Below, piece after piece: positions 8,656 to 47,678 of a stretch of 64,000 nt of DNA; position 1 is the first letter of the stretch, and every line of letters begins with the position of its first letter. The notes beneath the pieces are model-generated. The model searched no databases and was not told where the DNA came from. It saw nothing but the letters and a program-made list of their open reading frames with translations. Made by a program: the position numbers and the translations under genes. This DNA comes from Phoronis australis (lineage: Eukaryota > Animalia > Phoronida): positions 141,966 to 205,965 of the forward strand of contig NMRA01000470.1 of the NCBI GenBank assembly GCA_002633005.1. The letters run 5' to 3'.

Positions 8656-8979
8656 CAACAACTTTGAGTTTGGCAGCTATCGCAGTCGACATGAAAGGGT
8701 GACGAGTGTTCCTTGCGGCGCAGACAAACACTTCATCTTCGTGTTGGAGGACCCTAACGAATGACAAATGAAGTGCAATTGTCGTGACGCCATTAGCTTC
8801 GCTTGTGATCACATCAGAAGACGCATTGATCAGGTTGGACGAGAAGTTGGCAGTTGCCATGGGATTGACTGTTGCTACGCAGCGGATGACTGCGGTGGAG
8901 CCATTGTTAACGACCACTGTGTTACCTACGATTTCGGTTAGCGTGTCAGCTCCTTCCAGTTTCATGTCAAAGGGGCCAG
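8656..8979 (-). CDS. Ig exon 16 (324 nt): GPFDMKLE..IRCVATVNPMA..HEDEVFVCAARN..LKVV
   Basis: tcgcag|CTGGCCCC acceptor; GTT G|GTAAGA donor. Confidence 0.9.
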
Positions 8980-9109
8980 CTGCGAATAGTAACGTGCCTG
9001 AAAGTTCCTCTGTGTGCGATCTTTTACGCGGAATAAAATGTCTCGTGAGATATTACTTCATCTACGTCACTCTCGGTAGGTATACACAAAACGTACCGAG
9101 CACAGACAT

Positions 9110-10200
9110 CACATAGAGTATTAAGATGTCTATGGTATCGAGCGTGGCGTACATGAAATAATATCCCACGAGACATTATTTCGCGCATCGACCTTGACCT
9201 TCGGAATAATGTCGAGTGGGATATTATTTCATGTACGCCACTCAGGTACGTTTTGTATTTATCCCATACGCATCGAATTTGTGAGTTTCTTTTGTTTTCT
9301 TTCGGCATTTTATAAATACTTCACCCTGTCTGTTTACGTGGCTAATCACAACCTGTTGTATATGTACGTGCGCTTATGTTGCTAACTTGCTGTAGTAAAA
9401 GGAAGCAGTTTTAAATGTAACGGTTTATTAAATTGATAAAAAGTGTGAAAACTACAGTTATTGTGCATTGAACTTGTATCATATTTCCAAAATAAATAAA
9501 TAACAAGAAAATTTATAACACTGTAAAATCCTCAGCGGGTAGCTGCACTCATTCATGAAACTAGGTCATTGACCAGAGCGCGTAGCCTGAACGTCATCTG
9601 TTTTCACGAAGATATTAAAAGTGCTACCGTTGATGACAGCTCCGGTGAGTATGCTTGTTGTAGAGTTGTTGCAGGTACGTTGTCGCATTTCTACGGATTC
9701 TGTAGCCTTGGTAAAAGGCTGTATACTAAATATACGACAGTCTGTTGATACAGCTAGCTAGCTGGCTACTGATTCTGTAGCATGGATAGGTTCACGTGTT
9801 GCTGCTCGTGTAGTACTGTCGCCGATAGTATCGGGTGCTGTTATGGCCAGTGACAACAATGTTTGATATTGGCGAGGAATCGGACCTGAGTTGCAGACGA
9901 TATATCATAGCAATTGAAAACTGAGACAGAACTGTCGTATAATTAACAGTACTGTTCCAGATGTTACAATTGAAACCTGGTTGCATGTTGATTGGTATAC
10001 TTTTACACTGCTACAATTGTATTACTTTAAGTTATTTTCCGAAAATTTGATGATCTAACCGGCTTACGACGTCGAGTCGACATTGACCTAGCTTTTGAAC
10101 CTTCAATGTCAGAGGTCACTGTTGAAGTAGTGCGGGAGGTGAATACGGAAAACATTATTACATGGCCGCATTTCCCTCGACAGATTCAACGCGTATGGGA
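9110..10200 (-). mobile_element. Decayed Crypton-like (tyrosine recombinase) element with terminal hairpin
   Basis: Minus-strand fragments SPISNIVVTGHNS (YR box II-like) and ILTGAVINGSTFNIF (C-terminal tail); 36-bp-arm hairpin at 9145-9240; boundaries approximate. Confidence 0.55.
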
Positions 10201-10735
10201 TAAACTTGTTATTCCTTGACACACACCAAATCACGTTATGTCCAAAAATATTCTTGTACATTTGTAGTCACGTGTTTTTTTTTCTAAAAATTGTTTTTCA
10301 GATATTGTTGTAACTCCCACGATCGTGAGAGTTTGCTCAAAACTTCTTGTTTGTTCTTTCTATCAATAATTAATCGTTTCTGAGATGTTCTTTTTAGACC
10401 TGTTATCCCGGGATACTTAATACACAATGCCGAATTAGGACAGTACAAACTTGAAAGTTACTTTGAAGTGTGCCAATCGTTCAATTTTCGAGTCGACTTT
10501 GAGTGGAAAATTGGACGCCGGGCACATGTTTCTGGCTCATTTCTGTTATTTGGATTCTTGTAAACATGTATGCTTATGAGTACTAACTTTGAAATTAGCG
10601 CTTATGTAAACAACGACATGTTGATCGACGTTTCCGTTTATTCACTATAAACCAATCTCAAGACAAAAGTTCAGGTGGCACAGGTTGAGAATAGATGATC
10701 CCTGGGGAAGGGCTTTTTGTCTAACAATCTAATAA

Positions 10736-11975
10736 CTAGAAAGATTATTGTCACGGCGTGACAATAACGGACTCTGCGCGTGCATATTACTGGAATTATG
10801 GGAAGTTACTGACAGCAACCCGTTTACCAATATGAAAAGGAATTCTTTAAAATTGTAGGAGAAATTACATATTAATTTTTTGATGACCTTCCCACTAATT
10901 GACCTCTTCCGGTGCATTATGAGCCCCAATGAGGAAGTAATTGTTAACTCCATTAAAAGTGTGGTTAATGCTAATAATCACAGATGTTTTACTTTAAGCA
11001 CTTCAGAATACAAGATGAATGAAGTGGTCAAACTTTCAGAAGAAAAATGTACCTAATGACCCCATGGGTGCACCAAATGACCTGAAAATTTAGAATTCAA
11101 ACTCAATCGCACTTAGTAAACAGATACGTAATTCTGAAGTCTCTAGCTCAAAATTTTAGTTTGTACTCAATGACCTTTGACCTATTTTTTCTGATTGGTT
11201 AGGCCTATTGCAAAGTAAAGTAGGGTATTCAATTGGCATGTTGACTTACACCAGTGTGCTGAAATTTAAAGAATTCCTTGAAAAACGTAAGAGATATAAC
11301 ATTTTGAAAGTTACATGACCTTTGCACTAATTGACCTTATCCGGTGCATTTTAAGCATCTTGAGGAGAATTATTGCAAAGCCTATGGAAAATGTGTTTAA
11401 CGCTGAGAATCACAGTTGTCTAACGGTTGACACATCAGAATATTTGCTGATTGAAAAGGTCAAATTTTCAGAAGAAAAATGCACCTAATGACCCCATGTT
11501 TGCACTAAATGACCTGAAACTTTAGATTCCGATTTAATTTACCTGTGGCAATCAGACCTGTCAATTTGAAGTGTCTAGCTCAAAATTTTAGTTTGCACCT
11601 AATGACCTTTGACCTATTTCACCTGATTGGATGACCCGATGACTTAGAAAAGTTATTTTTAAATTGTCATGTTGACTTATACCTGTGCACCGAATTTGAA
11701 AAAGATAGCTTTAGGAGGAGTAGCATTTTGAAAATTATATGACCTTTGCACCAGATGACCTCTTCCGGTGCAATATGGAATATGATTATGTAACCAATCA
11801 AAATTTATATACCGTCAAATGTTATATTCTGAATTTAAAGACTGTACCTGCACCCAATTTGGAGTTATTAAGCCTCAAAGTTGGTCGGAAGAAGAATAAG
11901 AAGAATAAGAATAAGAATAAAATTGAAGAAAACCCAGGAACAACAGTACTCTGCGCTTACACGCGCAGAGTAATT
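10736..11975 (-). mobile_element. Helentron-associated non-autonomous element (HINE/DINE-1-like)
   Basis: CTAG end next to hairpin ttattgtcacg-g-cgtgacaataa; subTIR actctgcgc at about 10771 and palindromic at 11948-11971; (AAGAAT)n microsatellite; internal ~440-bp tandem duplication rich in TGACCTT. Confidence 0.78.
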
Positions 11976-12897
11976 AAACGTGTGACTATAGTCGATTCCG
12001 ATGTGAATGGGGAGTGTGCACGGTATTAAAATGTAACGGTTGTGTATTTACTGCAGGGGTAATATTTGTAACATGCATTGCATTATTTTTCTGTAAGCTA
12101 TGGCTGTGAATATAATAAACGTATTAAAAAGAAACTTAGTGTGTTCTGTGTTGATGGAGATTATAACCTTATGGAGAATAGCTACTACATTCTGTCGTGC
12201 TCATTGTTCAGTGTGTTCAGTGCCTCCTCCACGCCGGTTGACATTGAATGACTATGTGGAAAATTATTCTATTTTATAATGAAAGTGATGATAGTGAATT
12301 CGAAGAAGAAGTATTGGAAATGTTAATTTATCCATATTTTAATTTTGATATCAAATCGTTATCAAGTTCCAATGGTTAAGACTATTGTTCTTTTGGTTTG
12401 AGCTCAGTGTGTGTTTTTCGGCCAACGGGAGACGCTGCTGAAATATTATTTTCCTTTTTAACATTTTTTGTATTCTTTTGACACTTTTTCTAACTAGTTT
12501 CATAATATTCATCACTTTTCTCGTTTATTAACTTCAAATGAACAAATCCAAATCAAATTAAATTAGCATTCAGTATTTTTTCCGTGTTGTAAGTTATAAA
12601 ACAATGATTTTCTGTGCCAAATTTTGCAAAATGTAATAAAATAGGTATATTTTCTCGAAAAGTTGCAAGCTAAACCGCGGGAATTTATTAAAGTCTTGAA
12701 GTATATCACCTAATGACACTGAAACAAGCAAAATTATATTGACTTCAAAAGTAGCTACTCTATGTCAGGGGTTCCCAGAATTGAATAGACAGTGATCTTA
12801 ATTAGTGACACAACCACCTGCGCACGTCCACAAAGTGCAACTTGTCAAGGACAAGCTGCGTGTCGATAAACACAGTGCTGTTGAAGGCTAAATTTTT

Positions 12898-14111
12898 GGA
12901 TTGTTCTAAAACCGCCTCGAACCCCAAACCCCACGTCCCCCTCGAGCCACGATCCCTGGCCGACGATCCCTCGACCCAGTCTGCACAAGCTCGACTGGAT
13001 TTGAACATAGAAAAAGTGCTGACTTGCAGGACCAACGAGTCTGGTCGTGAGCTCGCCTGGCTTTTCTTTGTCTTTTTGCAATTCGGCAACTTTGAAAGCC
13101 AAAAACAGAAAACCGTAACCAAATCAAATCAAAGATCTACCAACGTACCTTCTGACACAGCGCCACCTATACTGAAAAAGGGCCCTGTGGAAATATGATG
13201 ATCGACTCATGGAATTCCGTGTGTGGGCATCAGTGCGCATGCCTTGGTCGGAAGTGGACTTTTTACATCGCCACCACTTCCACACGCCTTTATGCTCTTA
13301 CTTGTTTGGGCTTAAGGCACTGGATCGGGTTTCCTTGATTTTGTTTACTTCGATCACTGCCTGTTTTAATAAAATGCAACTATTCAAGTTATAGGTGGTC
13401 GCCATACTACGTAAGCCTACGTAACAGTAAACTGAAAGGGGTTTCCCAGGTTCCAACCAATGGGAATAAGTGAAGTTTATGACGTCGGTTTCATTACTTA
13501 CAACCAATGAGAAGCCATGTTAAACAACATTGGCAGTGCTACCTGAAAGAGTGTACTACCAACTTTACAAATTTTCCCGTCCTCGGCAGAGTGTAATCGT
13601 CTCGTCTGAACTTCAGTGAATGGTACATTCGAGTTATTTATAAGAGAGTGCGAAAAGGCTAAGAAAATGTAATTTTTTAAGTAAATACAGTTTGAAAAAA
13701 CAAAATGTTAACTAAAAATCATCTCAAACTTACATGTGGTATTGTAAACGAGTATACGACGGAAAGCAAATAATAAAAATGCGAAGTTATTTGTATTCGA
13801 GTTACATGTAACGTACCCTCTCCCTAAGTTTAGTAGAACCACGGTAAAACATGGCCATCGGTAGCCGCTCGTGGAAATAATTCCGTGACAACGATAACAC
13901 GCTCAAAATTTGCTATTTCAGACCATGTTCTTAAGCTACTTTCTGTTTTAACAACTAGCCTTGAGCCAGAGCACACTCAAGTACAGGCAAGTCTTGTGTC
14001 ACTCAGCGACGTAATGTATAAAAAGCGTAAATACATCTATTGCTGTAGGTCGTGGGTCGACGGGGTTGTGGGTCGTGGGGTGTGGGGGTCGAGGGTGTTC
14101 TAGAACAATCC
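12898..14111. mobile_element. TIR element or pair of opposed MITE halves
   Basis: ggattgttctaaaac..cctcgaacccc / gggggtcgagggtgttctagaacaatcc; short ccacgac-type subrepeats; no clear TSD. Confidence 0.6.
13149..13542 (-). pseudogene. Possible eroded Ig-like exon lying between inverted repeats
   Basis: ctctttcag acceptor and AG|GTACGT donor 394 nt apart; LEPGKPLSVYCYV resembles an Ig B strand; in-frame stops. Confidence 0.3.
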
Positions 14112-14402
14112 CTCATTTTAGCTGAGTTTAGAGTGGGAAAAACAATTTGCTTGAGCTACTAGGCTACTTAAAAGTATTCCATGCTGGAAAGTGACAGTCC
14201 ATTGCAACTTTAGATGGTGTTTCAGTACTAGCCAGACACGTGTTCTGGTAAGGTGGTAAGATTTTCGCATGGGCACACTTACAGTTTACTATTCACAAAT
14301 GACCAAAACAACAAGCACCAAAATGGTTTATCGACTTTCAAGAACCCATTTGTGAAAGTTGTGCCAAACACGATTAGAGTGAACATTATAAGGATTATAT
14401 AC

Positions 14403-14759
14403 CTGTTACGTCCAGCGACATGGTTTCTGTTGCCACCAACTCAGCATTTTTGTTATTTTTGGCCACGCAAACAAGATTGCCGCCGTGATAAAGAAATGTC
14501 ACAAGCACGGACGCCGTAGCTTCGTTTTTATTTTCATTTTTGATGGTGACCAGATCGAATGTCTTAAAGTCGGCAATATCTCCGCGACGCGACACGACAT
14601 TTATGAATATATCTGAACCTTTGTTGGCCACTCCGGATGTACACGTGACGTTAAGTAGTGTGTCGTTGGTTATCACTATTGTTTCGCTGGCGTTTGGTTT
14701 GTACTCGTAACTTCCAGCGAGTGTCATGTCTACTGTCCACGGGCCGCGCGGAGCACCGT
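14403..14759 (-). CDS. Ig exon 15 (357 nt): GAPRGPWTVDM..VTCTSGVANKG..HGGNLVCVAKN..SLDVT
   Basis: ttacag|ACGGTGCT acceptor; ACA G|GTATAT donor. Confidence 0.87.
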
Positions 14760-14942
14760 CTGTAAAGTATGAACTCAGTCAGAGTGACAACAGAAGTCGC
14801 AAAAATGAATGAGCTTTCGCATACAGTGCCTCAAGTCTGTCAAGTCATTTAGCCTACAAAAGAAATGTCCTTACTGTGCATGTCACCATCATGTTTTCAA
14901 TTGTCAGTTTAATGGGTTTAGAAGATATTAAAATGTGTGCAC

Positions 14943-15275
14943 CTTTGACCTCGACACTTATTGACGTCCATGCTTTATTAGATTTGGCCAAGCTGTTTGT
15001 TGCGTTGCACCTTACGAAACTTAAGTCATAGTCTCGTTCCATTATTATGGTAAAAACACCTATTCGCGAGAGACCAATTTGGTCTTGACTCTTCTCATTG
15101 AATATTTCGACGTGTCCGTCTTTCTTGATCACTTCTAACGAGAACAAAACTGGCTGCAATACTTTATCTGTGATGCACCGGAAGGTAATCTTTTCGGCCA
15201 GAGTAGTTAAACATGCGTTCCCACGACCACGGCGTCCCCCAAGACAATAGAGAGCTGTTATTGCAGTCGGACCCA
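14943..15275 (-). CDS. Ig exon 14 (333 nt): GPTAITAL..FRCITDKVLQP..VRCNATN..SVEVK
   Basis: tttcag|TGGGTCCG acceptor; AAA G|GTGCAC donor (weak consensus). Confidence 0.85.
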
Positions 15276-15361
15276 CTGAAACGTGCAAGAAGAACTTACT
15301 GACTGCTAGTACGGCATGCATAGACGTAGCGTTGGGTTTCATGCAAGAGACTCCACATGAA

Positions 15362-16152
15362 GGTTTATAATGGGGCACTATTCTGAAAGCCCACTTCTCT
15401 GAGGGCCCACTACTCCGAAAAAACCACTACTCCGAACGCCCACTGCTCCGAAGACCTACTACTCTTAAAAACCCATCACCACAAAATGTTTTTTTTAATT
15501 TGTTTAATTTTTTCACTCGACGTTCATAAATTTTCTCTCATTTCACGAATGGGTTAATAATTTGTTACTTAGTATCGAAATGCCCACACAAAAAAAATAA
15601 AATTTGGACTATGACGTCCAAGGACTTGTTTCTGTTCTCCGTGATGGCAAGTAGCCCCATATGTTGATAAATTTAAACCGGCTTGACATGTTTCGGTTAT
15701 TAAAACACCATCTTCAGAACCAAAAACAATGGCCACCTCGCTAGGCCCTACAAAAAGTAATGATACACAGACATAGTCAGTTACAGAGAGTGTAACAGTA
15801 GATTAGACTAACAATGACAACCTGTGGTCGGCCAGTTGTTTTTGCTTCTGCGGATGGTGTTTTAATAAACGCTGAAATATGTCAAGTGGGTTTAAAGCCA
15901 TCGTTGTTTTCATCAACATGTCTCTGCTTTCTACTGTCTTTGTAATTAAAGACTATTGTATGGTGTCTTCTTCGAAGTTCGTTTGACTTAAAGAAAGTGC
16001 ACCATACTAATCATGTAAAGTGGCACAAATGCGGTTCATATTTGGAGGAGGCGTGGGTTTCTTCGGGGTAATGCTTTTTTTCCTAGTGGTGGGCCTTCGG
16101 AGTAGCGGGTTTTCTCGGAGTAGTGGGCCTTCGGAATAGTGAGCTGTAACCA
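15362..16152. mobile_element. MITE with ~17-bp subterminal tandem repeats
   Basis: (cccactactccgaa)n at 15375-15465 and its reverse complement at 16060-16150. Confidence 0.75.
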
Positions 16153-16247
16153 TTAATCTTACGTAGGACCTTACAAATATTTCTGAATATTTATTCAAAT
16201 ATCTGCGAAATTGTAAGACGGTTACGATTAGCTTCTGAAAAACCTAC

Positions 16248-16583
16248 CTATTACGTTCACTACAAAAGAAGCATTAACAGTTAAAAAATTGGTCTGTAAA
16301 TTGGATGCCGAACAAGTGATCACAAGTCCATGCTCGGATTCACCAAGGAATACGTGACTACTTGTTCTGAATGTCCTGTTCTTCATTTCTTGTATCCTGC
16401 TTCTTGGCAACGGGTAAGACAGACCACGTGACGGTTTGTAAGCGTAGATGACCATACTGACACCGTTCTTTGCATAATCTGTCAAACACTCAATCTGCAC
16501 CTCTCTATCATTATTAATGTGTATCACACTGTCGCGAATAGCGGGTCCGCCGTTCTGAGAAATAGTAACAGCTGTCGGTCCCA
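16248..16583 (-). CDS. Ig exon 13 (336 nt): GPTAVTIS..IECLTDYAKNG..EHGLVITCSASN..VVNVI
   Basis: tttcag|TGGGACCG acceptor; ATA G|GTAGGT donor. Confidence 0.9.
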
Positions 16584-17477
16584 CTGAAAAATGAAAGTCA
16601 ATTCTTATGTTTTCGAATGCTTTTATGGTATGCATATTAACACCGTGGCATGTACATGTACACCATTAGGAATCCAAGATACAACAGCGTTCACAATGGA
16701 AACTTTAGGGAAACGGGGTATATTGGGACTGCGGATAAATAAGATAAATAGGATCATTCCCAGTACACATAAACTAATGATGACTAGTCAGTTTCAACAC
16801 TTTCAAAACCAAGCTAAGACGGCCGGTGATAAGACACGCGGCAAGAAATAAGACACATATCGAAGACTGTTTAATCTTAAGACACTTGCATCAACCATAT
16901 AGCTTGCATTTTTGAAACGATAATGCAGTAGAAATTTAATAGAAATGTATTCTTATCTTTCAGTCAGTTGAGGGAACGTTGGGCGGTACGAAAAAGCTTT
17001 TAAGCGCCATTACACCGGTGCTTTCTGTCAAAAAACAAGTTTTGATCTAGAGCACTTAAGGTCATAATAATTACGATGGGACAGTGGTGCCAGAGTTTTG
17101 CAAAATAACGTATGCAAGACAGAAAGCCAACACGTTACTTAGGTCTTCAACAGGCCTATTGCAGCAGGCACTGTGCTTTATTTTCAGTGGCCATACTCAG
17201 GAAGTCTACTAGCCTGCTTGAGGAATTTTGCAAGTGTTTTTAAATACTTAAACTAAAAATGCTTTTGTTAGACAGTCTCTACTGAAACTGCTTTACTTCC
17301 AAAGCATTCTTATCTAATGATTTGATTAGTGAAGCACATGGTGCTCTGGTCATCTCAATAGGTGCAATTGATCGCGCTTTCTCCTAACTTAAACATTTTG
17401 GTGCGCTACGTTTGGAAAAGAACACTGAATCGACTACGAGATGTCCATAAGAAATATATGGATTTGAGATGTATTAC

Positions 17478-17804
17478 CTAAGACGTCTAAAGATATCGTT
17501 AGAGTAGTATTGACTCTCGGCTGCTGGGAATTTCGTGCTGAGCAAGTTACATTAGCACCTGCGTGTTTAGAGGTTATTTTGAACTGGTGGCTAGCTTTAT
17601 AAGTAGCCTCGCCCAGCGGCCGCACGAGAGGCTGTGGTTGCAAAGTTCCTTCCGTCATCGATAACTCGTAACCAAATTCCACGGCTGGCGAGGTTGGGTC
17701 TGTTATACAGTGCACAGTAAAGTAACTTGTTTCGGGAACGGCGCATACCAAATGTGTACAGTTGTAATATCCCGAGTATTCGTATCTGATTGACTTTGGC
17801 CCAT
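17478..17804 (-). CDS. Ig exon 12 (327 nt): GPKSIRYE..VHCITDPTSP..HAGANVTCSARN..SLDVL
   Basis: atacag|ATGGGCCA acceptor; TTA G|GTAATA donor. Confidence 0.9.
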
Positions 17805-19735
17805 CTGTATTTGACAAAATAAATAATCGATATCCAATGAACGATGACCATACATGTATTCTTTCAACGTTAAACAGCCAAGGAAACATGAACCTCTTTG
17901 GGCCGTCAGGGACGAAACTATCAAGAATGTACTGAATGGGTTCCCCTCTTGCAGCCGCAGAAGATCAAAGTCGTGCATTACATAGAGCTTTGACACCAGC
18001 ATTGGTAGCGGCAGTAAGTGGCACTGACCGACTGGAGACACAACTGCTGTTCCAGGGTGCAAGTGGCTCCCATAGTGGATCAAACTTAGGCCCTCCAAAA
18101 TTTTGTTTGTGACATCATTCCCAGACAACTAAATTATTCTTACACTGGGGGCTGATCGGTGAGTCGCTTTTGATTGTAGATCGATGATGACAATTTCCAG
18201 AAAATTGTTTTAATTCGTGTCTACTTTGTGTACAAAATTCTGGGGCTTGACCTTACCTATTTCTCTATAAGCAGCTAATACGTGTAATTATAAACCGAAG
18301 TCGCGCTGTTCGACGTAGGCCTATCCCACGTTAAATACAACAACCGAAAGTTCGGTTGTTCACAATTAATTAATAAAAACACCTCTAGTATGCAATTTGC
18401 ATCTCGGTGACATACCTTGATCTCAACAAAATTCATTTCAATTGCGGCGTGTAAGTCATTTGCAAGTTAAAAATACTTTTTCCTTTTCATTCTCCAGTTT
18501 ACAACACGGGGAGTTTCGCCAATCGAAAAATATCACTAAAATGTGAACATTTTGTATCTTTCAGCACTGCTTGTGTTTGCCTTATTATACAATGAATTGT
18601 TTCAATTTTGTAAAAAGTGGGCGGGACTTCGCAGAAACATAGTTATATGTGGCGCCCGTTGAGGGAGTAGTCATGAAGCATGAGTAAGCTGTCACGGCTG
18701 ATGTATTATGTAATGGGGGTATAACAAAAATTAAAATTATACTAAAAATTCAGTACAGTTAAAAATGTTTGGAGTTGTGTTGAATGAGCGTTAAGTGAGC
18801 TTAAGTTTCGACTGAACTAAATTTGCATTAAACGAAATTTTGACTAAAATGAAGAGGAAGGGTACTTTAAGAATCGCTGCATGAGAAACTCGAGCACAGT
18901 GAATATTCTGCAAACATGGTGTGTCGCAGCAAACGATTTCTCTACTCTACAGTTTTTCATGAGTTAATCCATCTTCGAAAATGACATTATTTGTCATTTC
19001 ATTTCGTTGTTTTTCAAAAAGTTGAATCAGACTTTTTAATCATTTTTCACTCAATCTAAGATCAGTTACTGCTGTAAGCTCGACCAACTTAAAGGCAGCG
19101 TAAAGTAAGCCAACCTTTTAGATATGTTAAATACGCGTACTTTTGTGCAGCATATCTTTATTTCGTTTTATTCCACATAACCACTAATTAAATCCTACAC
19201 ATTTTATGCCCCCCATATTACGTGCCCCAATCAGAAACCCCTCTCATTTTCTTGACCTATCACAATCGACTGGTTTATTGACATCATCTTTGTGACCAGC
19301 ACATTACCGCACTAACCACAGCCTGAACAGCTGATCGCCTGCCAAATATTAAGTACACTCTAGGAACGTCACCAATTAGAAACATCACCGACGTTCGGCA
19401 TCAGTGTCGATTGATAACGCGATTACTAACCAAAACAATCGTGTCAGGCAACGCACCTTTCTAACCCAACACAATGAACAACCATCGGCGGATTTAGGGG
19501 GGCCCAGCTTTCCGAAAAAACGAGAGTTCTTAACTGAAACCGTTGATGTTGTCCATCACTCTAAACATGCAATTGGTTATATGTCATGTTCATGTTTAAA
19601 TAACTTTCTCTTGTCGTAATTATAAAAGCTTTCGGTTGGTGTAAAACAAGTCTTGATTTTAAGCCTAAACCTAGTTTTATATATAATTTACTAATGTCAC
19701 TAAAGTTAATCCTGGACGTTTCCGGGAATACATAC

Positions 19736-20050
19736 ATGCAGCCCTGAGTTCAAACTCAGATTCCACAGGGACGATGGCAGGATCAGAATTTTTGGCTACG
19801 CACTTGACGAAGGTCTGGTCGTCATTTCTGTTGACTACAAATTGAAGTGTAGAATTCACAGCAAACCCAGTCAGCTGTCCACTTTTCAATGCGTACACCG
19901 AAGAATCGAATGTCTTGTTAGTCAATGTCGGATGCGACCACGAAACGGAGGCATTTGGAAACATAATGTCTGACGCGCAAAGCAGCCTCACTTCGTCTCC
20001 CTCGGCAGGATAGTGTGCAGATGACGTCACAGTGACCGTGTCAGGTCCGA
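19736..20050 (-). CDS. Ig exon 11 (315 nt): GPDTVTVT..LLCASDIMFPNASVSW..STLQFVVNRNDDQTFVKCVAKN..ELRAA
   Basis: tttcag|TCGGACCT acceptor; GCA T|GTATGT donor. Confidence 0.9.
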
Positions 20051-20399
20051 CTGAAATTGCAAGGATTAAGCATGACTGGAACACAATATGAAACACTTGC
20101 CTTATTGATAAATGACCAATTGTTACAATGACAATGGCTTTAAGGGCTAAATAGGACTGTTTAGTTGACTGTGTGCATGAATCATAAAGTACAACATCCC
20201 AAAAACTCATGTACAGTTGTATTTAAATGAATAACAGAAACAGCAAAACTATGCCATATTTCAGTAGCCTTTTAAAGGGTGAGACGTGGATCCCAATCCT
20301 TGAATGAAAGCTGAAGTACCGTATTCAGATATTGGCAACCAAAATCATCAGCCTTCTAAAATTTTCAAGTCCACCAAAATCTTCAAGTATAACCCATGG

Positions 20400-25319: not shown

Positions 25320-25640
25320 ATGCTGTAGAGATGTGTATTCGGCTGTTAACGTATGCTTTCACGTTGCCACCATCGTCCAGAGCCTCACATCGTATCAGTT
25401 TACCGTCATGAAATTCGATGGGGCGGAATTGAAAATTGATCGAGTAAATCCGCGTATTTCGTTTAACTTCCACGCTCTTCACTGCTGACCGTTGCCCAAT
25501 TATGCTCGTTATCCATCTCAATCGGACAGAGGGAAATACTTCATCTGTTGCACACGTCAATGTTTGGGGAATGTAGAGTGGTATTTGAAGCTTGTCGTCT
25601 TCAACTGCCGCGCCTTTAATGACCAGCGTCGTTGGACCAT
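25320..25640 (-). CDS. Ig exon 9 (321 nt): GPTTLVIK..LTCATDEVFPSVRLRW..HDGKLIRCEAL..HISTA
   Basis: ctacag|ATGGTCCA acceptor; GCA T|GTAAGT donor. Confidence 0.9.
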
Positions 25641-31934: not shown

Positions 31935-32264
31935 CTTCCACTACAATATTGACAGTTTGATGGGCATGCAAAGTGGCCGAGTCCTTATTAAGAGCACGAC
32001 AAGTGACTTCAATGGGTGACTCTCTGGCGTCCGCGACAATTGTGAGAGAAGATTTGAAAATATATTTCGGCTGATTCCTTGGAACTTCTTCGACAGTAGT
32101 CAGCCCTTCGGTCTTAATCTTGACATCACAATACCACATGAAGAATGCATACTGATAGACGTGGTCCGTTTGGCACGTTATTGTCAATGACTGCCTATCT
32201 TTGACATGTACTTCGTTGTCTCCTTTCCGTGCTGGTGTAAACATCTTCACCTTTTTCGGGCCGG
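31935..32264 (-). CDS. Ig exon 7 (330 nt): GPKKVKMF..ITCQTDHVYQYAFFMW..VTCRALN..NIVVE
   Basis: tctcag|CCGGCCCG acceptor; GAA G|GTAAGT donor. Confidence 0.9.
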
Positions 32265-32617: not shown

Positions 32618-35600
32618 TAGTGCTCCAGAAATCCCAACTTAAAAAAAAATGCAACAGAAGTTTTTCTGCATAAATGGCATCTTTAAACATCCCTTGGTGC
32701 CAGAAAAAGTCTACCGAAATCGGAGTGGCGGAAGTCGGTTTTTCAAGATGGCGGAAAATGGCCGACAAAACCGGCGTTTTACTGTTTTTGGCATGTTTCT
32801 CCTATGTGACAGCTGCAAATAAAACAATAAAGCGACTTTGTCCTTGATTATATTATTTTAATAATGGACATACTAATCAAAACATGCCAATTTTTTGTAA
32901 AATAAAGCCAATATGGTCGAAAAAATGGCTGCCGAAACGGCAATTTGGTACATGTTGCGAATTTTTTTTATATTTTGCCCTGAAAATTGCAGAATTCCTA
33001 TTCTTTTGTAAATTAGACAATTAAAAATATCTGGACCTTACAGTTGGTCACTGGTTGGAGTGAAAAATTTCAAGATGGCTGACAAAATGACCACCAACTA
33101 ACAAAACCCCAAATTACCGCACGTGCATTCTGCAAACTTTGTTTGTAATCTGAAAAGCGTTTATACAGAAACAATTTAGAATCTACAGTCAGGCTTAATG
33201 AGTTGATTGTTTATAAAATTTGTTTATAAAAGATTTTGATACTAAATTTGGAATTTTAATCAGATTTTAGATTATTTAACATATAAGTTTATGTGTTTTA
33301 CGCAAACCCTGAATCACATTGGGCAGGGAGAGGTTTTGCTCTCTGCTATTGGAGATATTATAAGTTGTTCCCATGCAAAGATTCGTCTGCTCTACTGACA
33401 TGAGTGGAGAATGTAGCTGCTGATTTCACCTGAATTTGATGAAAAGTAAATAAATTTGTGTAACAAAAAGTTAATAATTAATGTTTAACATTTAGTACTC
33501 ACAATTGGTTTAATATGCATGCTTTTTATGAACGCCGGTAACTGATTTTTAGACGAAATTAGTGATAGCAAACCAAACAACAGTTATCTGCCAGTCGTGG
33601 TGGATTGCATACCGAGATGAGCTTGCTGGGTTCTATTGGATACGTATTGTCAAGCACCAGGCTTCAAGAAGTTCTTGTATCAATATGTTAAATGGAAAAA
33701 GTGTGGATACAGCAGTGAGGGGGCCTATGTTGGTAGACTCAGCACTAAATGCTATCATAACAGCCAGAGAATTCATCATCCCACTTCCAAATATTGACAG
33801 ATCAAGTGACACCGATCCAGAGCCAATGACTTCAGAATTTGAAAAAGACAAGTTCCGGTTCTTCAGAAATTCCAGGAGTCTCGAATGTCACCAACACAGA
33901 ACACAAAATTCCGTGCCAAGAGGTGGAACAATTCACTGTTTGAACACAAACTTTGGCTCGTCAGAATATATAGACACAGATCTTTCAAACATCCCAACTA
34001 ATCACATAACTAGGGATGTATACAATGTGACATGCCACGCACAGACAGTGTCTTCCGATTCTGAACCTTGGATTATAGTGGAATACTATCACAAGAGTTC
34101 ATTCCTGCCTTCCAACAAAGTGCCATTGGTGTACTCAAACATGACTGAATCAGAGCATACTAGGTCTTCAGAATTCGCAGTGACAGAAAATGGTTCGTCA
34201 GAAGAATCAATGAATCATTGATCAACTTTCAAATCATCATCAAATATATCAGATATATTTGATGATGATTTGAAAGCTGGTCTGAGGTTGTATGATCTTA
34301 CTGCTGGCATGACGTCTATGTGTGGCGATGTATGCTTGTCGGAGTGTCTTGTAGGATTCAAAAAAAAACGAAGCACATAAATCAGATTTGTCCTTGCATT
34401 GTCGAACCAGATTCTGTGCAGGTTCGACATCTGGCCCTGTAATTGAACAAACGCTCATGAAAACCATTAAATCAACAAGAGGTTTAACTAGAGGTCTAAG
34501 AATGGGAGATACGCAGCGTACACAGTGGCTGATTTCCTTGCCGGCATGCTCAAGTATAAATGATGCCACGCAGAGTGTGACAAACTTGAGTTGTGAAACA
34601 AGTGAACAGCATAAAGAATGTACCCAGGCAAAACAGTCACGGGATGACAAAGACATCTTAAGCGTCGTTGAATTCTTACACAACAGAAATCCATTTTAAA
34701 GAGAAACATTACAGAACATAGCCACTTATGTTACTGCAGGCACACGCGTCAATGCCGAGGGGAGGGAAAGGCCATTCTCGTGTTTCTGGAGGGATCGAGT
34801 GTGAAAGAATTCACATTCAGAAAGAAAAGCAAGGTTGTGGCAACGACAAGTCCACCAGTTCATGTTACCAGTAATTATTTTACACAAGAGGATCCACAAC
34901 TGCTATTTCAGCAATTACTGACAGCTGCAAAAGACAACAGTGAAAGTTTATAGAGCCTTTTGAAGTTTGAGCTGTGTGTTGGTTCCACCGCTCTTTTCGA
35001 TACATCTGGTCTTCCGAGAGTCGCTAATAAAACAGCAGTGGGTGATGTACTCTGGTCCAGTGGGGGACAACTACATGAGGATTACCAATTTCCTGAAAAC
35101 ACTATGATGCATGTATCCGACGGCGGCTTTCTCTTTCACCGTATTCTATGGCCTAGAGGTGCAACGTTATAGTCAGTTGGTAGAGCTTATGTGGATTACG
35201 TCAGCAAGTAAACCCAGCCTACTTTTGTTTTTGAGTCAAAGAAGGAAGTTCACATTTTTGGCAAAAAGCAAAAACAAACAAAGATTCATCCACTTCTTGT
35301 CGAATATGCCAAGACGCGATGGTTTAATGGTAGAAACAGCTGTGGAAAATGCAGCACAAGGTCCTACTACACTCATTGAAGACGATACAGACTTGTTGGT
35401 TCTTTTGTGTTACCATGTTACTTCACAACAATGCCCATTATTCATCATATCTGACAAGAGGCGTCAAAGCAAGAGGAGAGTTTGGGACATCAAGGAACTA
35501 CAATTGCCTCTGGCCATTTGCGCATGCAATACGTCGTTGCGGTACAACATCGTGGTTGTTCGGTATTGGCAAGGCTCTCCCATTTAAGAAACTTTGTGTT

Positions 35601-36965
35601 CGAGAAATCTTCGAAAACGTTAGACTATTCGTTAGACCCATGCAGCTGAACCAAGACATATTCGAAGCTGGTAAAAGAGTTGTGCTTTATGGCGGCACTG
35701 GAAATTTGGATAACTTGCGCTGCAGGCGATTTATGGAAAGGTGCCAACAACTGCTTCAGCAACTAAATTATATGCTACCAGGACAAGAGCAAGAGTGGTC
35801 AAGTTTCTGTGGGTGTGACCTAGTCCCGCTGGATTGGAGATGGATGCTGACAGGTGGAAAACTCATTCCCACGACGACGAACCAGCCAGTAGCACCAGAG
35901 AACCTGCTGAAAGTAGTAAGATGTCCGTGCAAGAACAATTGCAGTTTCAAGAGATGTACTCGCAAGGCGTTAGAATTCCCGTCTCGGTTGAATGTGGAGA
36001 ATGCAGTGATATAAGCTGCAGCAAGTCATTCTCAGTTGAAAGACATTGGTTGTATAAATACTGGTTGATTGTGTACAGATTTTGATCACAGACTGAGAAT
36101 TATTGCTTGGGGCAAACGTGACAAACGTGTAACATCACTAAAGAGAAGTCTAGCGTGAGCTGTAAATTGTTTTAACTTGCTAAAAATTCCTTGCTAAACA
36201 TTTCTCCTGTCTCAACTGTTGCTGTATTCACTAGAATTTACAACTAACTGGAGGTGACACAGGCGGCCAATTGGTGTGAACAGTAGGTCACTAAATTAAT
36301 CGCGGAGAATTATTTTCGATACAGCACATTTTTTCAGGAGAATGGCCCTTCAGTCCAGGCGAACATGACGTTTTTAGTATTTTCTGAACAATCTTGAAAA
36401 TGGTTGTCGAAACCAGACAAAAATAATTTTAATGGACATGTTGATCTATGAAACTCAGGATATGACATCTGTGAAGATGGTAGGTCTCTGGAATCTGAAG
36501 TTCTTAAATGAAGCAACTAATTGGAGGCCATTTTGTAAAATGGCGGAAGTAATCATAAGAGCAAAATGCAATGAGCCTCAATGGATTAATCGACCCTGAA
36601 AACTTATGATACAATGTTTAAATCAAGACAACACACTAATCAGATCGTGCAAAGTTGTGCAACTCGAAGTAGTTTCGGCGGCCATCTTGGAAAATGACGG
36701 ATGTTGTCACCACAGTCGTCCAAAACTATTTCTATTGGATTTGTTGACCTTTTTGAATTTTTACAATATCACAGTCCAATCTCGAGATATAATGGTCGTA
36801 TGCAAATCCGCCAGCCATTTTGTCCGTCATCTTGAAGAAACAACTTCCGCCACTCCGATTCCGGAATACTTTTTTCTCACACTAAGGGGTGTGAGAGGAT
36901 ACGATTCATGCAATAAAACCTTCTGTTTCAATTATCGTTTTGAGCGAAAGTACAAAAATGCCACT
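32618..36965 (+). mobile_element. Decayed Academ (AcademX) DNA transposon
   Basis: Transposase fragment IEQTLMKTIKSTRGLTRG..RNPF; XPG-like DDTDLLVLL and HAIRRCGTTSWLFGIGK; C-terminal Cys-rich RCPCKNNC..RC..CGEC; diverged long inverted ends (32640-32770 vs 36800-36940) with AAAATGGC repeats. Confidence 0.75.
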
Positions 36966-37159: not shown

Positions 37160-37480
37160 TTAGCGTTTTCAGTGTGGTTAATTTGTGAGCATTGAGTGTT
37201 GGGGTACGAGTATTTACGGCAGAGCATGCGGCACTGTCACCATCTATGGTGTCTTGTCCGTGTGTTGTCTCCATCGTGCTAACGTAAAAGCGCTCTTTAG
37301 CGTTCGAAGTCAATTCTCTTGATTCATGTGATAACAAAGACCACTTGATATTGGCCTTGGGCCACACTGCATCTGTGACACAGCTGATCGTGTAGTGAAC
37401 GTTGTTGAGCAAAAGTAATTTGCCGTCGCGACTTGTTCTATTGCCGGGAAATGCTCGTATCTCCAATGCAGTCGGACCAT
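37160..37480 (-). CDS. Ig exon 6 (321 nt): GPTALEIR..ISCVTDAVWPKANIKW..AACSAVN..TLKTL
   Basis: aaacag|ATGGTCCG acceptor; CTA A|GTACGT donor. Confidence 0.87.
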
Positions 37481-38481: not shown

Positions 38482-38784
38482 ATGTTATGTCGAGTTTGAA
38501 AGACTTTCTGAGTACTGGCGACTGCAAATGTGGGATCCGAGAGGCAGAACACGTAACATCCTCTTGGTTTATTGCCGGAGACGAGATAATTTGCGTTTCT
38601 TTCTGGTATTTCATCATCTGTTGAAGTGTATCGGATTCTTCACCAAGTGACCAGTGCATTTCTGCACCAGGGTTTACGTCATCAGTGCTACATATAAATA
38701 TTTCTATGGAATCTTTGTCGGAGACAAATGTTAGTCCAACCTCGTTGCCATTTATCGTTGTAATGCTTAAAACTGTCGGTCCAT
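38482..38784 (-). CDS. Ig exon 5 (303 nt): GPTVLSIT..FICSTDDVNPGAEMHW..VTCSAS..KLDIT
   Basis: cttcag|ATGGACCG acceptor; ACA T|GTAAGT donor. Confidence 0.9.
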
Positions 38785-39545: not shown

Positions 39546-39878
39546 AGTGAACTCTAACTGTATAGATCTTGAATTCTACAGCCTGGATCTTTGTGTTAGA
39601 AGCATAACATTTCAACGAGATTTTGTCTAATTCTTTGTTGGCTCGTATTGTGATGTTCCCACGGTACGCTAACCCGCCATACAAACTATTTGAAAATGAC
39701 ACCTCGGACTTGGTTCCTTTAAGAGACTGCCATCTCATGCTGATCTCTGGGTACGAACTGTCCGTCGAGCATTCTAGTGTGTAAACGGACCCGAGCATCA
39801 CGTGGAACCTTTTGCTGTTGTGATCTAAAAGCCCTGGGACTTCACTCAGGTCTAGCACTGTCAGCTCAGTAGGGCCAA
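39546..39878 (-). CDS. Ig exon 4 (333 nt): GPTELTVL..LECSTDSSYPEISMRW..LKCYASN..TVRVH
   Basis: ttgtag|TTGGCCCT acceptor; CAC T|GTAAGT donor. Confidence 0.9.
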
Positions 39879-40215: not shown

Positions 40216-40548
40216 ATGCTACTTCAATAGTGGCTCTGACACGTTTCTTGAACTTGTGTTGTTGTACATTATGTGCTTCACAAAGAACCTGCTTCTTGTT
40301 TAAATGACGTGTGTATGTGAATGTAAAATTCTGCCTGAATGTTGATGCATTCGAAGCACTATGTTGACTAGAGCGATAAAGTTTGCCTTTTATTCCCCAA
40401 TCGGCCGTCCACGTCATTTTAACACTTGGCCAAACCAAATCTGTCTCGCAGTATAACTTGCACGTTTTGTTTTCAACACCATTCAGAATACCGTTGTTGA
40501 TCGATAGCTTTTTCCACTCTTCGCTAAGTGTCAGTTCATCTGGCCCGT
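40216..40548 (-). CDS. Ig exon 3 (333 nt): GPDELTLS..KLYCETDLVWPSVKMTW..VLCEAHN..TIEVA
   Basis: ttgtag|ACGGGCCA acceptor; GCA T|GTGAGT donor; open frame extends upstream of the listed ORF. Confidence 0.88.
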
Positions 40549-42018: not shown

Positions 42019-44435
42019 ATTGTCATTGTCATTGTCTCAGGGACAGATATCACTGCACATTGGACAGGTCCACAAGTGCTAAGTCCTTCTCTGCAGTAGC
42101 CAAAAAAGAGTCACACTGCTGATGGTTCCCATGTTGAGCTGGTTAATCCGGTATCTACTTTATCCACGTAACGTGGTTCTGATGTCGCTTCCTCTGACAA
42201 AATGAAGCTCAGTTAGTCTGTCCAGTGTGGTGCTTTCTGAGAGAGCCTCCATCTCCTGGTCTTTCAGTGCCATCAAAACATCCTTTTCGCTCCAAGTGAC
42301 ATCTTCCAAAAGTTCTGCCTTTCCTGCCAGGTCATCTGCTCTTTCATTCCCCGTCACTCCAGCATGTCCAGGGGTAAACAACCACACCAGGTGTTTCAGC
42401 CTGCTTCCTTCTATTGCTTCCTTCCATTCTGGTTTAATGAAACCACTCTTGATTTTGTTAAGCATGCTCTGCGAGTCCGTAGCAATGACTGCCCCTGTGT
42501 AGCGGGTGGTACGGAGCCATCCTAGAGCTGCTGTGGCTGCCTGCTCGTCCATCCGTATGCTGGTGGTCATCAAGTATGCACCTCTTTGCTCTGCAACACA
42601 TCGAGCTCTCACGCGTGCTGTGAATCCCCAGCCAGATTTGACACCCCTGACGCCTGACCCATCTGTGAAGATAATGGCATCCGATAGTTTGCTGTTCTCT
42701 TCAATAAGTACACAGACCTCAGTGTTCACAACTACTCCACTGCGTTCTCGGCATTCCCGTCGCAGTGTGATGAAAACCTTTGTGCAATTAGCCAATGTGT
42801 CCCTAATAGGTTTCCACTCTTTGTCTCTCCTTATGCTCCCAGTCTTGCACACCGAAGCAACCGTATCCTCCGCTTGAGCCGTCCAAGATCGTCCGCGTTT
42901 GATTCGGCTACCCTTATCTATTCCTATTTCTTTGTACAGAAGGTGGTCTTTGTCAGATGCCACTCAGAAGAGTGCCTTGACTTGAGCATGCTTGTGTCGG
43001 TGTGTGATGCTTGGTAATCCAAGAACATGGCGCATTGCATCAGTTGATGTGTTTCTAGTGCAGACCGAGACTACCCTCATGCCTTCATTCTGAATTTTTT
43101 TAATTTTGGATAGCTGGGTCTGTGACATAGTTGTTATCCCAAAGCCATAGTCTATGGCAGCCAACACAAGAGCCTTAAATAACAGCAACAGTAATCGTTT
43201 TTCCATTTTAGCTTTTGCCATCGTCTTCAGAGCCGAGAGTCCTTTTGCACACCTTTTGACAAAGCTATCTGCATGCTCCTTGAAGCTCAAAGTGCGATCC
43301 AAGGCTATGCCCAGGTATTTGAGCGTGTGAGTTCTTTTAATAGTGGAGCCTTCTATTTCGACGGCTGGCATTACTTTGCTAATCACTTGTTGAGAGAGCA
43401 CCACATCGCAGCTGCTTTGGCATTAATCACTGATCCAGTGTCTTCACACCATGTTGACACATCTTTGAGGTGTGTGCTGATGCCTTCGGCCATTCTGATG
43501 TGGTCTGTCCCATGTGCATATACAGGCGCGTCATCTGGAAATGTGAGAATCCTCCCGTGTTCAATATTGATTGTATAGTACCGGGGACAAAGATGATCCT
43601 TGTGGAAGTCGAGGATTCAGTCTCATAGGGTCAGAGAGCCACGACCCCAACCTCAGTGCCGCTGTACGTTCCATCAATGCAGCGGCTATCCAGTTGATGA
43701 TGTAATGGTTGACCTAACAATCTAAATGCAGATTCACCAACTTCTCGTAAGATACACGATTATATGCGTCCTCGAGGTCAATCGCCACAGCCGGAGTATC
43801 TTCCTTCCTTTGGAATGCTTCATATACATCATACGAAAAAATGGCCACATTGGCCCATGTGACTTTCCCGGTCCTGTAGCTTCCAAGAGTTTGTGGAAGT
43901 AGCTTCCTATTCTTCAGGTCCCATGCGAGTTCTCGGGCCACAATGCGCTCCATAAGTTTGCCAATTGTATTTTGCATTATTATTCTATAGCCATTCAGCA
44001 GGCTTAGGAAGCACAGCCAAGAAGCTGTGTAGCCAATCCTCGGGAATTATACCTTTCTCCAAGCTTTCTTGGTACAAAGCGGCCAGCTCTTCAAGTTCTG
44101 CATCATCAAGTTCTCGGATCGCGTCATAGTCCACTCTATCTGGTTCTGGGGATGTGTTTTTCATTGTCTTCAGGGTGCTGCGAAGATATTCTACCGTAAT
44201 AGTGAACGGCACCTCGTCAGTCGAAGCAAGCTCAGTGAGTACCGCTTTTGTGCTCTTGCGCTGCTCCAAATTTCTCTGATCTGTTTGATCAATGTACCTT
44301 TCCAAAAAGTCATTCATTTGCTTTCATCAGTCACTAGAACTGTTCCATTCTCAGCTTCCACGTTTCCGAAGTTTGTGGAATCACTCTGCCTGTTCATGCT
44401 CTTATGTAACTTCCAGAATTTGATCAGTGCCCTCA
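42019..44435 (-). mobile_element. 5'-truncated LINE with RT and RNase H (I group, Ingi/Nimb-like), frameshifted
   Basis: QNTIGKLMERIV, AIDLEDAYNRV, LPQGSSLSP, LKYLGIALDRTLSFKEH; RNase H IFTDGS..TDSQS..PGHAGVTGNERADDLA; (GACAAT)n 3' tail. Confidence 0.92.
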
Positions 44436-44667
44436 GTGTGTTAAATAGGCAGACCACTAATATAAAGCAATGTAAAATTTAAGGAAAATGAAGGTTTGTC
44501 TAGTATTAGTGAGTGCGTGGTAGAATGATTCGTCGTTGGACGTTTAACGCAAATTATAGTGATCACAAGAGAATAAATCAACAAACCCAAGACCTTGGAG
44601 TGTATAGGGTCAATTATTTATTTTTCTTCATGTCAATTGGGTGTCATGGGTCACGGAAACAAGTTAA

Positions 44668-46277: not shown

Positions 46278-46534
46278 TTAATTACGGCATATCAGTCTAA
46301 AGTTACACTGCACATCCGAAAAAACACATTCGATTACTAAAATGTATGTTAAGCCAAAGCCATCCATGTGTGGATATTCATCCAAAGCCAGATATATATC
46401 TGGAATTATTTGTGACTCTCAAGACGAGAAACGCTCCACAAGGACACCGTGTTTTTTGAAATTTGCATAGCGTTTTCACTAATCTGTTAAATAAGTTACA
46501 AACTGTTTGGCCCAGTGGTTTCCTTTGCACTTAC

Positions 46535-46831
46535 AAACTACATTCAAGGTCTGAATTGCGTGCACCCCTTTGGAAGAACCGGCGGGATTTCTTCTGGCGG
46601 AACAGTTCACGAAACGTAATGTCCTGTTAACCTGGATTGTGGTGTTTTTCTCAAACGTTCCATTGTACTGTGCTGCGCTACCAGCCGTGCCATGAGACCA
46701 GTTTATGCTCACATTTGGATACGCCTTGTCGGTAGTGCATGTCAGTGTCAAGTTGTCGCCGTCATCCACTTTTAGTTGAGAACGCCAACTCCCAAGAGAA
46801 GGCCTCGTTATCGTCACCTTCGATGGGCCGT
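46535..46831 (-). CDS. Ig exon 2 (297 nt): GPSKVTIT..LTCTTDKAYPNVSINW..VNCSAR..TLNVV
   Basis: tcaag|ACGGCCCA acceptor; GTT T|GTAAGT donor. Confidence 0.88.
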
Positions 46832-47363
46832 CTTGACATCGAAACGAAAATTAAAATTGAGAAAAACTTTGGCTAACTTAAGAATGCCATATCTCAAAGA
46901 ATTGATCAGATTCAAATGAAACTTTCAGGTACTATTACTATAACTTCTTCAAAACGTTTCATTTTGCATAAGGTGCTACGCGAAAATTGATACGATTTTA
47001 ATTTTAAGAAAAATCAAATGTTACATGAAACAAAACGGAGGTAAAATTCAATCTAATTCTATAATGGATTCGATAAATTTCCTGGCAAATTTTTCTTTAC
47101 AATCCTTTCCTATAATTTGTAATTCTCTAACTGACTTCACAAAACGAGTACATACTGTAACGAGTTTGAAAAAGCGACGAGTATTCCGTCTGTAAGCACG
47201 TGATCAGCGATAAGCAGAGCTGCCCTGAGTTAAGAAACGTTAGGACGTCGCTAAAAGCCAAGACTTCGCAAAGACACGTGAGATATTGCGTGGGTTTTAA
47301 ATGAGAACATGTGGCTTTGGCTAGATTTAAGCGACGTCCCAGCATAGGTCCCAGTTAACTTAC

Positions 47364-47678
47364 AATGAACAGAAAGCGTGAGGTTCTTTGTTATGCTGAA
47401 GCCAGGATATACAATGTTCGTCGCGTTGCATGAAAGCGTGACACCGTGAAATTGTCGCTCTGCTATGAAGTGCAGACTTTTAAAATACGAATTATTGCTT
47501 TGTCTCTTGGTGCTGACACTGATTCCTGGCAACCTGCCGTACTGCCAATCCACAAGCGCACCTGGGTTAGTGGCACTTGTTCTGCATGTTAGAGTGTAAT
47601 TTGCATTTTCTTCTACAGTGAACGTGTCGCCGCTGACATTGTGTTGTTTGTACTGGAAGAATATCGACTGAGGTCCAT
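47364..47678 (-). CDS. Ig exon 1 (315 nt): GPQSIFFQ..LTCRTSATNPGALVDW..LSCNATN..LTLSVH
   Basis: tttcag|ATGGACCT acceptor; CAT T|GTAAGT donor; two Cys plus Trp. Confidence 0.9.

What the first reader, a model, noticed from the sequence alone, without database searches (positions are those of the whole stretch)
8656..47678. Array of at least 16 divergent, frame-symmetric single-Ig-domain exons: giant poly-C2-set protein or combinatorial Ig receptor locus
Seen: every exon is one Ig domain, a multiple of 3 nt and phase 1-1. None of the 16 starts with AA, AG or GA, so any subset can be spliced in frame without a junction stop. The domains share only the GP, Cys, TD..P and CxAxN skeleton and are otherwise very divergent. 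Known: one domain per phase-1 exon is normal for the Ig superfamily. Nephrin/Kirre/sidestep proteins carry only a few CD80-like C2-set domains, while Dscam and Hydractinia Alr show invertebrate Ig diversification by splicing or duplication. Inference: an unbroken run of 16 or more such domains looks like a lineage-specific expansion. It could be a long rod-like adhesion or recognition protein, or a cassette array for isoform diversity. The Y/F-G-P linkers at 9 of 15 consecutive junctions favour tandem splicing.
Basis: partly seen in the sequence, partly recalled or inferred. Interest (0 to 1): 0.8.

Follow-up and report, generated by a model that had tools for sequence, protein, structure and literature searches.

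The report
Sixteen-Ig-domain adhesion rod gene
An animal gene carries sixteen very divergent immunoglobulin-type exons in a row plus a thrombospondin exon, and the six read in RNA are about equally abundant, so it likely makes one long rod-shaped cell-surface protein rather than a Dscam-like library of variants.

Summary
The 16 exons are real: minus strand, 8656-47678, open, phase 1-1, mean identity 19%, each scoring above all shuffles. They are nephrin/SYG-2-type C2-set Ig domains. I add a candidate signal-peptide exon (59933-59875) and a TSP1 exon (6128-5940), together about 1,800 residues; the C-terminus was not found in the window. In two of three RNA runs, exons 11-16 are read from the gene's strand at even depth (11-17x), and the TSP1 exon at 3-15x, against about 200x expected if one exon of 16 were chosen. 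Dscam-type choice is therefore rejected if TSP1 is on the same transcript. No exon-exon junction read was seen and exons 1-10 have no RNA data, so minor exon skipping stays open. It is neither nephrin nor hemicentin. No close relative was found (single exons at most 35% identical over 70+ residues), though sea stars have runs of 8-10 similar domains. The scan did not note this array before; an unchecked note describes an Ig/TSP1 receptor elsewhere in this genome. Verdict: an unusual, lineage-specific member of a familiar class; modest interest.

The parts
59875..59933 (-). Candidate leader exon: ATG at 59926, 17 codons (basic start, hydrophobic core), phase-1 GTAAGT donor; predicted signal peptide
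   Evidence: only such exon on either strand under strict criteria; 3 of 300 shuffles give one (criteria set after seeing it). No RNA data.
47364..47678 (-). Ig exon 1 (315 nt)
   Evidence: PF08205 22.3 bits; model pLDDT 93.9, Foldseek Rst/SYG-2
46535..46831 (-). Ig exon 2 (297 nt)
40216..40548 (-). Ig exon 3 (333 nt), three cysteines
39546..39878 (-). Ig exon 4 (333 nt)
38482..38784 (-). Ig exon 5 (303 nt)
   Evidence: Leave-one-out 37.5 bits; no named Ig Pfam hit
37160..37480 (-). Ig exon 6 (321 nt)
   Evidence: Leave-one-out 47.8 bits; no Pfam hit
31935..32264 (-). Ig exon 7 (330 nt), three cysteines
   Evidence: PF00047 22.0 bits
27554..27817 (-). Ig exon 8 (264 nt), short and atypical, no GP; the least secure exon
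   Evidence: Leave-one-out 10.2 bits; all-beta model pLDDT 72.8 made with an Ig alignment, Foldseek rows Ig-like but none at E<=0.001
25320..25640 (-). Ig exon 9 (321 nt)
   Evidence: PF08205 24.6 bits
23238..23582 (-). Ig exon 10 (345 nt)
   Evidence: Atlas neighbours are C2-set/nephrin-like clusters at 0.93-0.96
19736..20050 (-). Ig exon 11 (315 nt), transcribed
   Evidence: PF08205 24.9 bits; depth 11.0/10.6 in X5/X6
17478..17804 (-). Ig exon 12 (327 nt), transcribed
   Evidence: Depth 14.5/13.3
16248..16583 (-). Ig exon 13 (336 nt), transcribed
   Evidence: Depth 17.3/14.1
14943..15275 (-). Ig exon 14 (333 nt), transcribed; weak predicted donor GTGCAC
   Evidence: Depth 16.1/12.9; donor score 0
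14403..14759 (-). Ig exon 15 (357 nt), transcribed
   Evidence: Depth 14.3/12.5
8656..8979 (-). Ig exon 16 (324 nt), transcribed
   Evidence: Depth 13.6/11.2 on the half that lies in a clean bin
5940..6128 (-). TSP1 exon (189 nt, phase 1-1), transcribed; inferred next exon of the same gene
   Evidence: PF00090 45.8 bits, E 6.8e-12; same strand and same on/off pattern in X5, X6, X7
5410..5598 (-). Second copy of the TSP1 exon, likely an assembly duplication
   Evidence: 5163-5691 repeats 5693-6221 at 99.4% around a single N; one silent difference in the exon

Best explanation
This is one transcribed gene whose sixteen divergent C2-set Ig exons are likely spliced head to tail, between a predicted signal peptide and a TSP1 domain, into one long glycosylated rod that likely serves as a membrane-anchored adhesion or spacer protein. 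Shown: exon anatomy, Ig fold of exon 1, stranded transcription and even depth of exons 11-16 and the TSP1 exon, and expression in two of three runs. Inferred: the exon-to-exon joins, the leader, inclusion of exons 1-10, origin by repeated duplication of one phase-1 exon, a length near 60-65 nm (about 4 nm per domain, recalled), and a membrane anchor beyond the window. It would work like nephrin/SYG-2, spanning a fixed gap and binding a partner across it, but with twice the Ig domains. I put about 0.8 on 'all exons in one chain as the main mRNA' and about 0.6 on that plus a membrane anchor.
For: Exon bins carry 2.8-8.7 mean depth on one mate direction and 0-0.02 on the other in X5 and X6; repeat-poor intron bins carry 0-0.18. 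Per-exon depth is 11.0-17.3 (X5) and 10.6-14.1 (X6); the TSP1 exon is 4.8-14.9 and 3.4-9.7 over four ways of assigning reads to its two copies, against 231 and 199 for one-of-16. Consecutive split codons are more often Y/F than in random orders (76 of 20,000). Leader plus 17 exons read open for 1,798 residues with 36 N-glycosylation sequons. Best solved match of the profile is SYG-2 (E 6e-22). The named closest per-domain hits are nephrin/SYG-2-like, and the sea-star and brittle-star proteins P0004, P0010 and P0015 have a hydrophobic segment near the C-terminus.
Against: No exon-exon junction appears among the 15 joints shown; 374 were hidden and the list was dominated by repeats. Exons 1-10 and the leader have no RNA data. 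No convincing transmembrane exon was found in the 5.4 kb after TSP1. TSP1 depth is somewhat lower than Ig exon depth. An Ig run followed by TSP1 is the order seen in secreted hemicentin. Function is untested.
Confidence: 0.6

Rival explanations
1. Same constitutive chain, but secreted: a matrix or mucus rod protein that works like a small hemicentin.
For: Ig run then TSP1 matches hemicentin's order; the only TSP1-bearing proteins among 151 hits were an annotated hemicentin (P0017) and an I-set run with TSP1 (P0138). No membrane exon was found in the window.
Against: No VWA-like hit upstream: tblastn of the stored proteins, hemicentin P0017 included, gave nothing outside the exons. Domains are C2-set, not I-set. 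The closest tandem-C2 proteins have C-terminal hydrophobic segments.
Confidence: 0.2
2. Cassette array: subsets of exons are skipped in frame in some tissues, tuning rod length or binding surfaces.
For: Any subset is in frame with no junction stop. Some splice sites are weak (exon 14 donor 0, exon 9 acceptor 2.5). Large multi-Ig proteins of scallops carry many predicted isoforms by name (X31, X6).
Against: Exons 11-16 differ in depth by at most 1.6-fold, and weak-donor exon 14 is as deep as its neighbours. Frame symmetry is normal for Ig exons.
Confidence: 0.15
3. Dscam-type one-of-16 choice, or sDscam-type alternative first cassettes, giving a receptor repertoire.
For: Tandem homologous exons of similar length, a trait of mutually exclusive clusters (PMC6071210, passages).
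Against: TSP1 depth is 3-15x, not about 200x, and below the sum of the six measured exons (87 and 75). The best shared motif near splice sites occurs in 3-4 of 16 regions, as in shuffles. Relaxed leader-like hits lie in only 2 of 15 internal introns, with 2 on the control strand.
Confidence: 0.03
4. Transcribed pseudogene or decaying array.
For: Six domains have no Ig Pfam hit, exon 8 is truncated, and the last five lack the C-strand tryptophan.
Against: 5,154 nt of exon is open with intact splice sites at 19% identity, and introns are depleted in RNA.
Confidence: 0.02

Closest known systems
Nephrin / SYG-2 / Rst-Kirre family (PDB 4ofy, 4of8; PF08205)
   Same: Domain type: best profile, structure and Atlas matches; tandem C2-set domains with short proline linkers.
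   Different: Nephrin has eight Ig regions and one FNIII (PMC12284917, passages). Here 16 Ig domains are followed by TSP1. Best alignments to nephrin-like proteins are 21-24% over at most about 580 residues.
Uncharacterised echinoderm and hemichordate tandem-C2 proteins (Patiria XP_038064817, Acanthaster XP_022104107, Glandiceps XP_077980081)
   Same: Long C2-set runs: 10 and 8 consecutive domains at about 19 bits each; 26 PF08205 stretches in the Glandiceps protein.
   Different: No TSP1 motif; many of their repeats are recent near-copies; they branch apart from the window's domains in a weak tree.
Hemicentin (fibulin-6)
   Same: A long Ig run followed by TSP1.
   Different: Defined by N-terminal VWA, more than 40 Ig domains and G2F-EGF-FC (bioRxiv 2021.11.24.469833, passages). 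Here no VWA was detected and there are 16 C2-set domains.
Insect Dscam1 mutually exclusive clusters
   Same: Tandem homologous Ig-coding exons.
   Different: One-of-N inclusion with docking and selector sequences (PMC6071210, passages) is not seen here.
Hydractinia Alr family
   Same: Divergent Ig domains, each on a single exon (PMC9546547, passages).
   Different: Alr is 41 loci, each with one to three Ig domains, an ECS and a transmembrane helix; this is one long gene.

Membership tests
Ig superfamily, CD80-like C2-set (PF08205) | Paired B- and F-strand cysteines | tested here: met
   16 of 16
Ig superfamily, CD80-like C2-set (PF08205) | Ig beta-sandwich fold | tested here: met
   Exon 1: pLDDT 93.9, Foldseek E 1.7e-6 to Rst. 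Exon 8 inconclusive. The other 14 were not folded.
Ig superfamily, CD80-like C2-set (PF08205) | Pfam gathering score | tested here: inconclusive
   3 of 16 pass PF08205 and 4 more hit below the cut-off
Nephrin/SYG-2 | Eight Ig regions followed by FNIII | tested here: not met
   16 Ig exons, then TSP1
Nephrin/SYG-2 | Collinear domain-by-domain orthology | tested here: not met
   21-24% over partial lengths; 14 of 16 window domains group with each other, SH-aLRT 87, quick tree with long branches; the clade test did not finish
Nephrin/SYG-2 | Transmembrane helix and signalling tail | not testable with these tools
   Not found in the window; no genome is held
Hemicentin | N-terminal VWA and more than 40 Ig domains | tested here: not met
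   No tblastn hit outside the exons at E<=0.01; 16 domains
Hemicentin | G2F-EGF-FC C-terminus | not testable with these tools
   The 3' end was not found in the window
Dscam-type mutually exclusive cluster | One and only one exon included | tested here: not met
   Depth ratio; assumes TSP1 is on the same transcript; covers exons 11-16 only
Dscam-type mutually exclusive cluster | Selector sequences complementary to a docking site | tested here: inconclusive
   No shared 10-12-mer above shuffles within 140-nt flanks; no related genome for a conservation test
Alr-type multigene cluster | Separate genes, each with leader, one to three Ig domains and a transmembrane helix | tested here: not met
   One strict leader in the window; relaxed hits at background level
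Alr-type multigene cluster | High allelic polymorphism | not tested
   The variant table was filled by repeat positions

The most novel reading that the evidence does not exclude
The gene is a paralogue of the Ig/TSP1 receptor with a dynein-like microtubule-binding tail that an unchecked note places elsewhere in this genome (e1-10594279). It would be a 60-nm C2-set rod tying an outside partner directly to microtubules, with in-frame exon skipping setting its length as a molecular ruler.
Probability: 0.1. Interest if true: 0.7.

Novelty: new variant of a known kind. Interest (0 to 1): 0.3.

Why it matters
Long multi-Ig surface proteins are common in animals, and one domain per phase-1 exon is the norm. 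What is unusual is an unbroken run of 16 nephrin-type C2-set domains at 19% identity joined to TSP1, an architecture absent from the 151 proteins examined. It is a candidate lineage-specific adhesion or recognition molecule expressed in some samples only. It does not add a new diversification system, which was the reason for the original high score.

Tried and rejected
No genome is held for the window, so neighbouring DNA and paralogues could not be read. The run search listed no RNA holder; that is no evidence either way. The joints, loose ends and variant tables were filled by repeats, so no splice junction or exonic polymorphism could be read. A word-indexed search with the 16-exon profile gave 1 hit among 7,991 candidates, a mollusc nephrin-like protein. 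The TSP1 exon gave no candidate. Exon 10 found no relative in metagenome contigs (124 pattern matches, none confirmed). Rfam gave 0 matches. Rejected as exons: a VGP-starting frame near 15750, which lies in an inverted repeat, and a short candidate near 5050-5095 inside a repeat. Paper searches: searches returned 0 papers; one search returned 3 (2 listed) and one search returned 41 (12 listed), none describing such a protein by title or abstract start. PMC11999971 (passages) has no mention of nephrin, hemicentin or thrombospondin. These searches are narrow and do not show absence from print. The tree used 78 domains: the 16 exons plus up to 6 best-scoring domains from each of 12 of the stored proteins. 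Only the quick tree finished. No complex prediction was run because no partner is in view.
Full report
Observation. Six-frame and splice-site scans found 13 Ig-like exons on the minus strand. All are open, 264-357 nt, multiples of three and phase 1-1, with introns of 183-5,986 nt. In a leave-one-out test each beat 200 shuffles and 244 background ORFs; exon 8 is the weakest at 10.2 bits. Mean pairwise identity is 19%, and the exons show no DNA self-similarity at E<=1e-5, so the expansion is old or fast-evolving. A final profile search and tblastn with the stored proteins found no further Ig exon; small non-Ig exons could be missed, and a 107-N gap lies in intron 4.

Domain type. Pfam places 10 of 16 in Ig families at E<=0.5, and 4 pass a gathering score, three of them PF08205. 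The profile's best solved match is SYG-2 (E 6e-22). The exon 1 model (pLDDT 93.9) matches Rst D1-D2 at E 1.7e-6. Exon 10's Atlas neighbours are C2-set and nephrin-like clusters. The exon 8 model is all-beta at pLDDT 72.8, was made with an Ig alignment, and has no Foldseek match at E<=0.001, so that exon remains the least secure.

The rest of the gene. Upstream, one exon at 59933-59875 has an acceptor, an ATG, 17 codons shaped like a signal peptide and a phase-1 GTAAGT donor. It is the only such exon on either strand under strict criteria, and 3 of 300 shuffles produce one; I set those criteria after seeing it. Downstream, a phase 1-1 TSP1 exon lies at 6128-5940 (PF00090, E 6.8e-12). Its second copy is part of a 529-nt, 99.4% duplication around a single N and is likely an assembly artefact. 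Leader plus 17 exons read open for 1,798 residues. No convincing further exon was found before position 1, and no genome is held, so the C-terminus is unknown.

RNA. Three raw RNA runs of the same species label and one DNA run were laid on 150-20149, with about 18-19% of each RNA run read. In X5 and X6 the bins holding exons 11-16 are covered on one mate direction only, the one expected for a minus-strand RNA in the common stranded protocol. Repeat-poor intron bins are near zero. X7 shows no signal on five of the six exon bins and 0.5 on the sixth. Converted to exon length, depth is 11-17 (X5) and 11-14 (X6). The TSP1 exon shows the same strand and the same on/off pattern at 5-15 and 3-10, depending on how reads are shared between its copies. 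One-of-16 choice predicts about 231 and 199 there, and the six measured exons alone sum to 87 and 75. This rejects a Dscam-type cluster provided TSP1 is on the same transcript. Limits: these are bin means; no exon-exon joint was among the 15 shown (374 hidden); exons 1-10 and the leader have no RNA data; and skipping of a minority of transcripts, or in other tissues, is not excluded.

Sequence-only tests point the same way. Consecutive split codons are Y or F more often than in random orders (76 of 20,000), which fits neighbour-to-neighbour splicing but could also reflect duplication history. No selector-like motif is shared near the splice sites beyond shuffles, and internal introns hold leader-like exons only at background rate. 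The absence of junction stops is expected for exons descended from one Y/D-G-P ancestor and is not evidence for combinatorial use.

Relatives. An exhaustive profile search of 1.84 billion representatives gave 2,710 hits at E<=0.001, of which the best 150 were examined. Single exons match them at 23-35% over 70 or more residues, with a few shorter matches higher. Named top hits are long multi-Ig proteins of scallops, sea stars, a hemichordate, an insect and fish. The named best single-domain matches are nephrin/SYG-2-like. Sea-star proteins have 8-10 consecutive similar domains, and the hemichordate one has 26 PF08205 stretches among near-identical repeats, so long C2-set runs are not unique. 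Of 151 proteins only two had a TSP1 motif: an annotated hemicentin and a fish I-set fragment. In a quick tree of 78 domains, 14 of 16 window domains fall on one branch (SH-aLRT 87, unstarred, long branches). That is compatible with expansion within this gene but does not prove it.

Mechanism. The most likely product is one long, heavily glycosylated rod made by repeated duplication of a phase-1 C2-set exon, exported by its signal peptide and probably anchored in a membrane by exons beyond the window. It would work like nephrin/SYG-2 as a spacer or adhesion molecule with longer reach. It is not a member of the nephrin family (eight Ig plus FNIII; PMC12284917, passages), of hemicentin (VWA, more than 40 Ig; bioRxiv 2021.11.24.469833, passages) or of an Alr-like cluster (PMC9546547, passages). 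No supplements were read.

Earlier notes. One unchecked note (e1-10594279) describes a long Ig/TSP1 receptor with a dynein-like microtubule-binding tail on another piece of this genome. I could not compare sequences, and look-ups by sequence and by relatives found nothing. It is a lead only and supplies the novel case.

Verdict. Observation confirmed; interpretation partly supported; new variant of a known kind; interest 0.3.

Noticed in passing
window 42163-44323, minus strand (intron 2): Broken LINE-type element: RVT_1 (E 2.3e-7) and RNase H (E 1.1e-10) fragments in several frames.
   Followed up: partly
window 33553-34218, plus strand (intron 6): A 222-codon stop-free frame antisense to the gene, with no Pfam hit and no usable Atlas hit. 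It may be a nested exon or a mobile-element relic; unexplained.
   Followed up: partly
window 35108-36011, plus strand: Overlapping open frames with a Cys-rich end and no Pfam hit; they resemble a DNA-transposon relic (recalled, untested).
   Followed up: partly
window 5163-6221 and 51018-51831: Two near-identical tandem duplications (99.4-99.5%), each joined at a single N: likely scaffolding artefacts.
   Followed up: partly
window 8656-17804 (exons 12-16): The last five domains lack the C-strand tryptophan and all end in G, whereas 8 of the first 11 end in T: two sub-blocks with different histories.
   Followed up: no
exons 3 and 7 (40216-40548, 31935-32264): Each has an odd third cysteine, a possible inter-chain disulfide; exons 8, 10, 12 and 14 have an extra pair.
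   Followed up: no
exon 15 (14403-14759), residue 58: One RGD tripeptide; could be chance in 1,800 residues.
   Followed up: no
window 8656-20050, run X7: The gene is nearly silent in one of three RNA runs of the same study, so expression depends on tissue or condition.
   Followed up: no
window 61371-61747, minus strand: Fragments that look like a degraded reverse-transcriptase element (recalled); no Pfam hit at 1e-5 for the one frame tested.
   Followed up: partly
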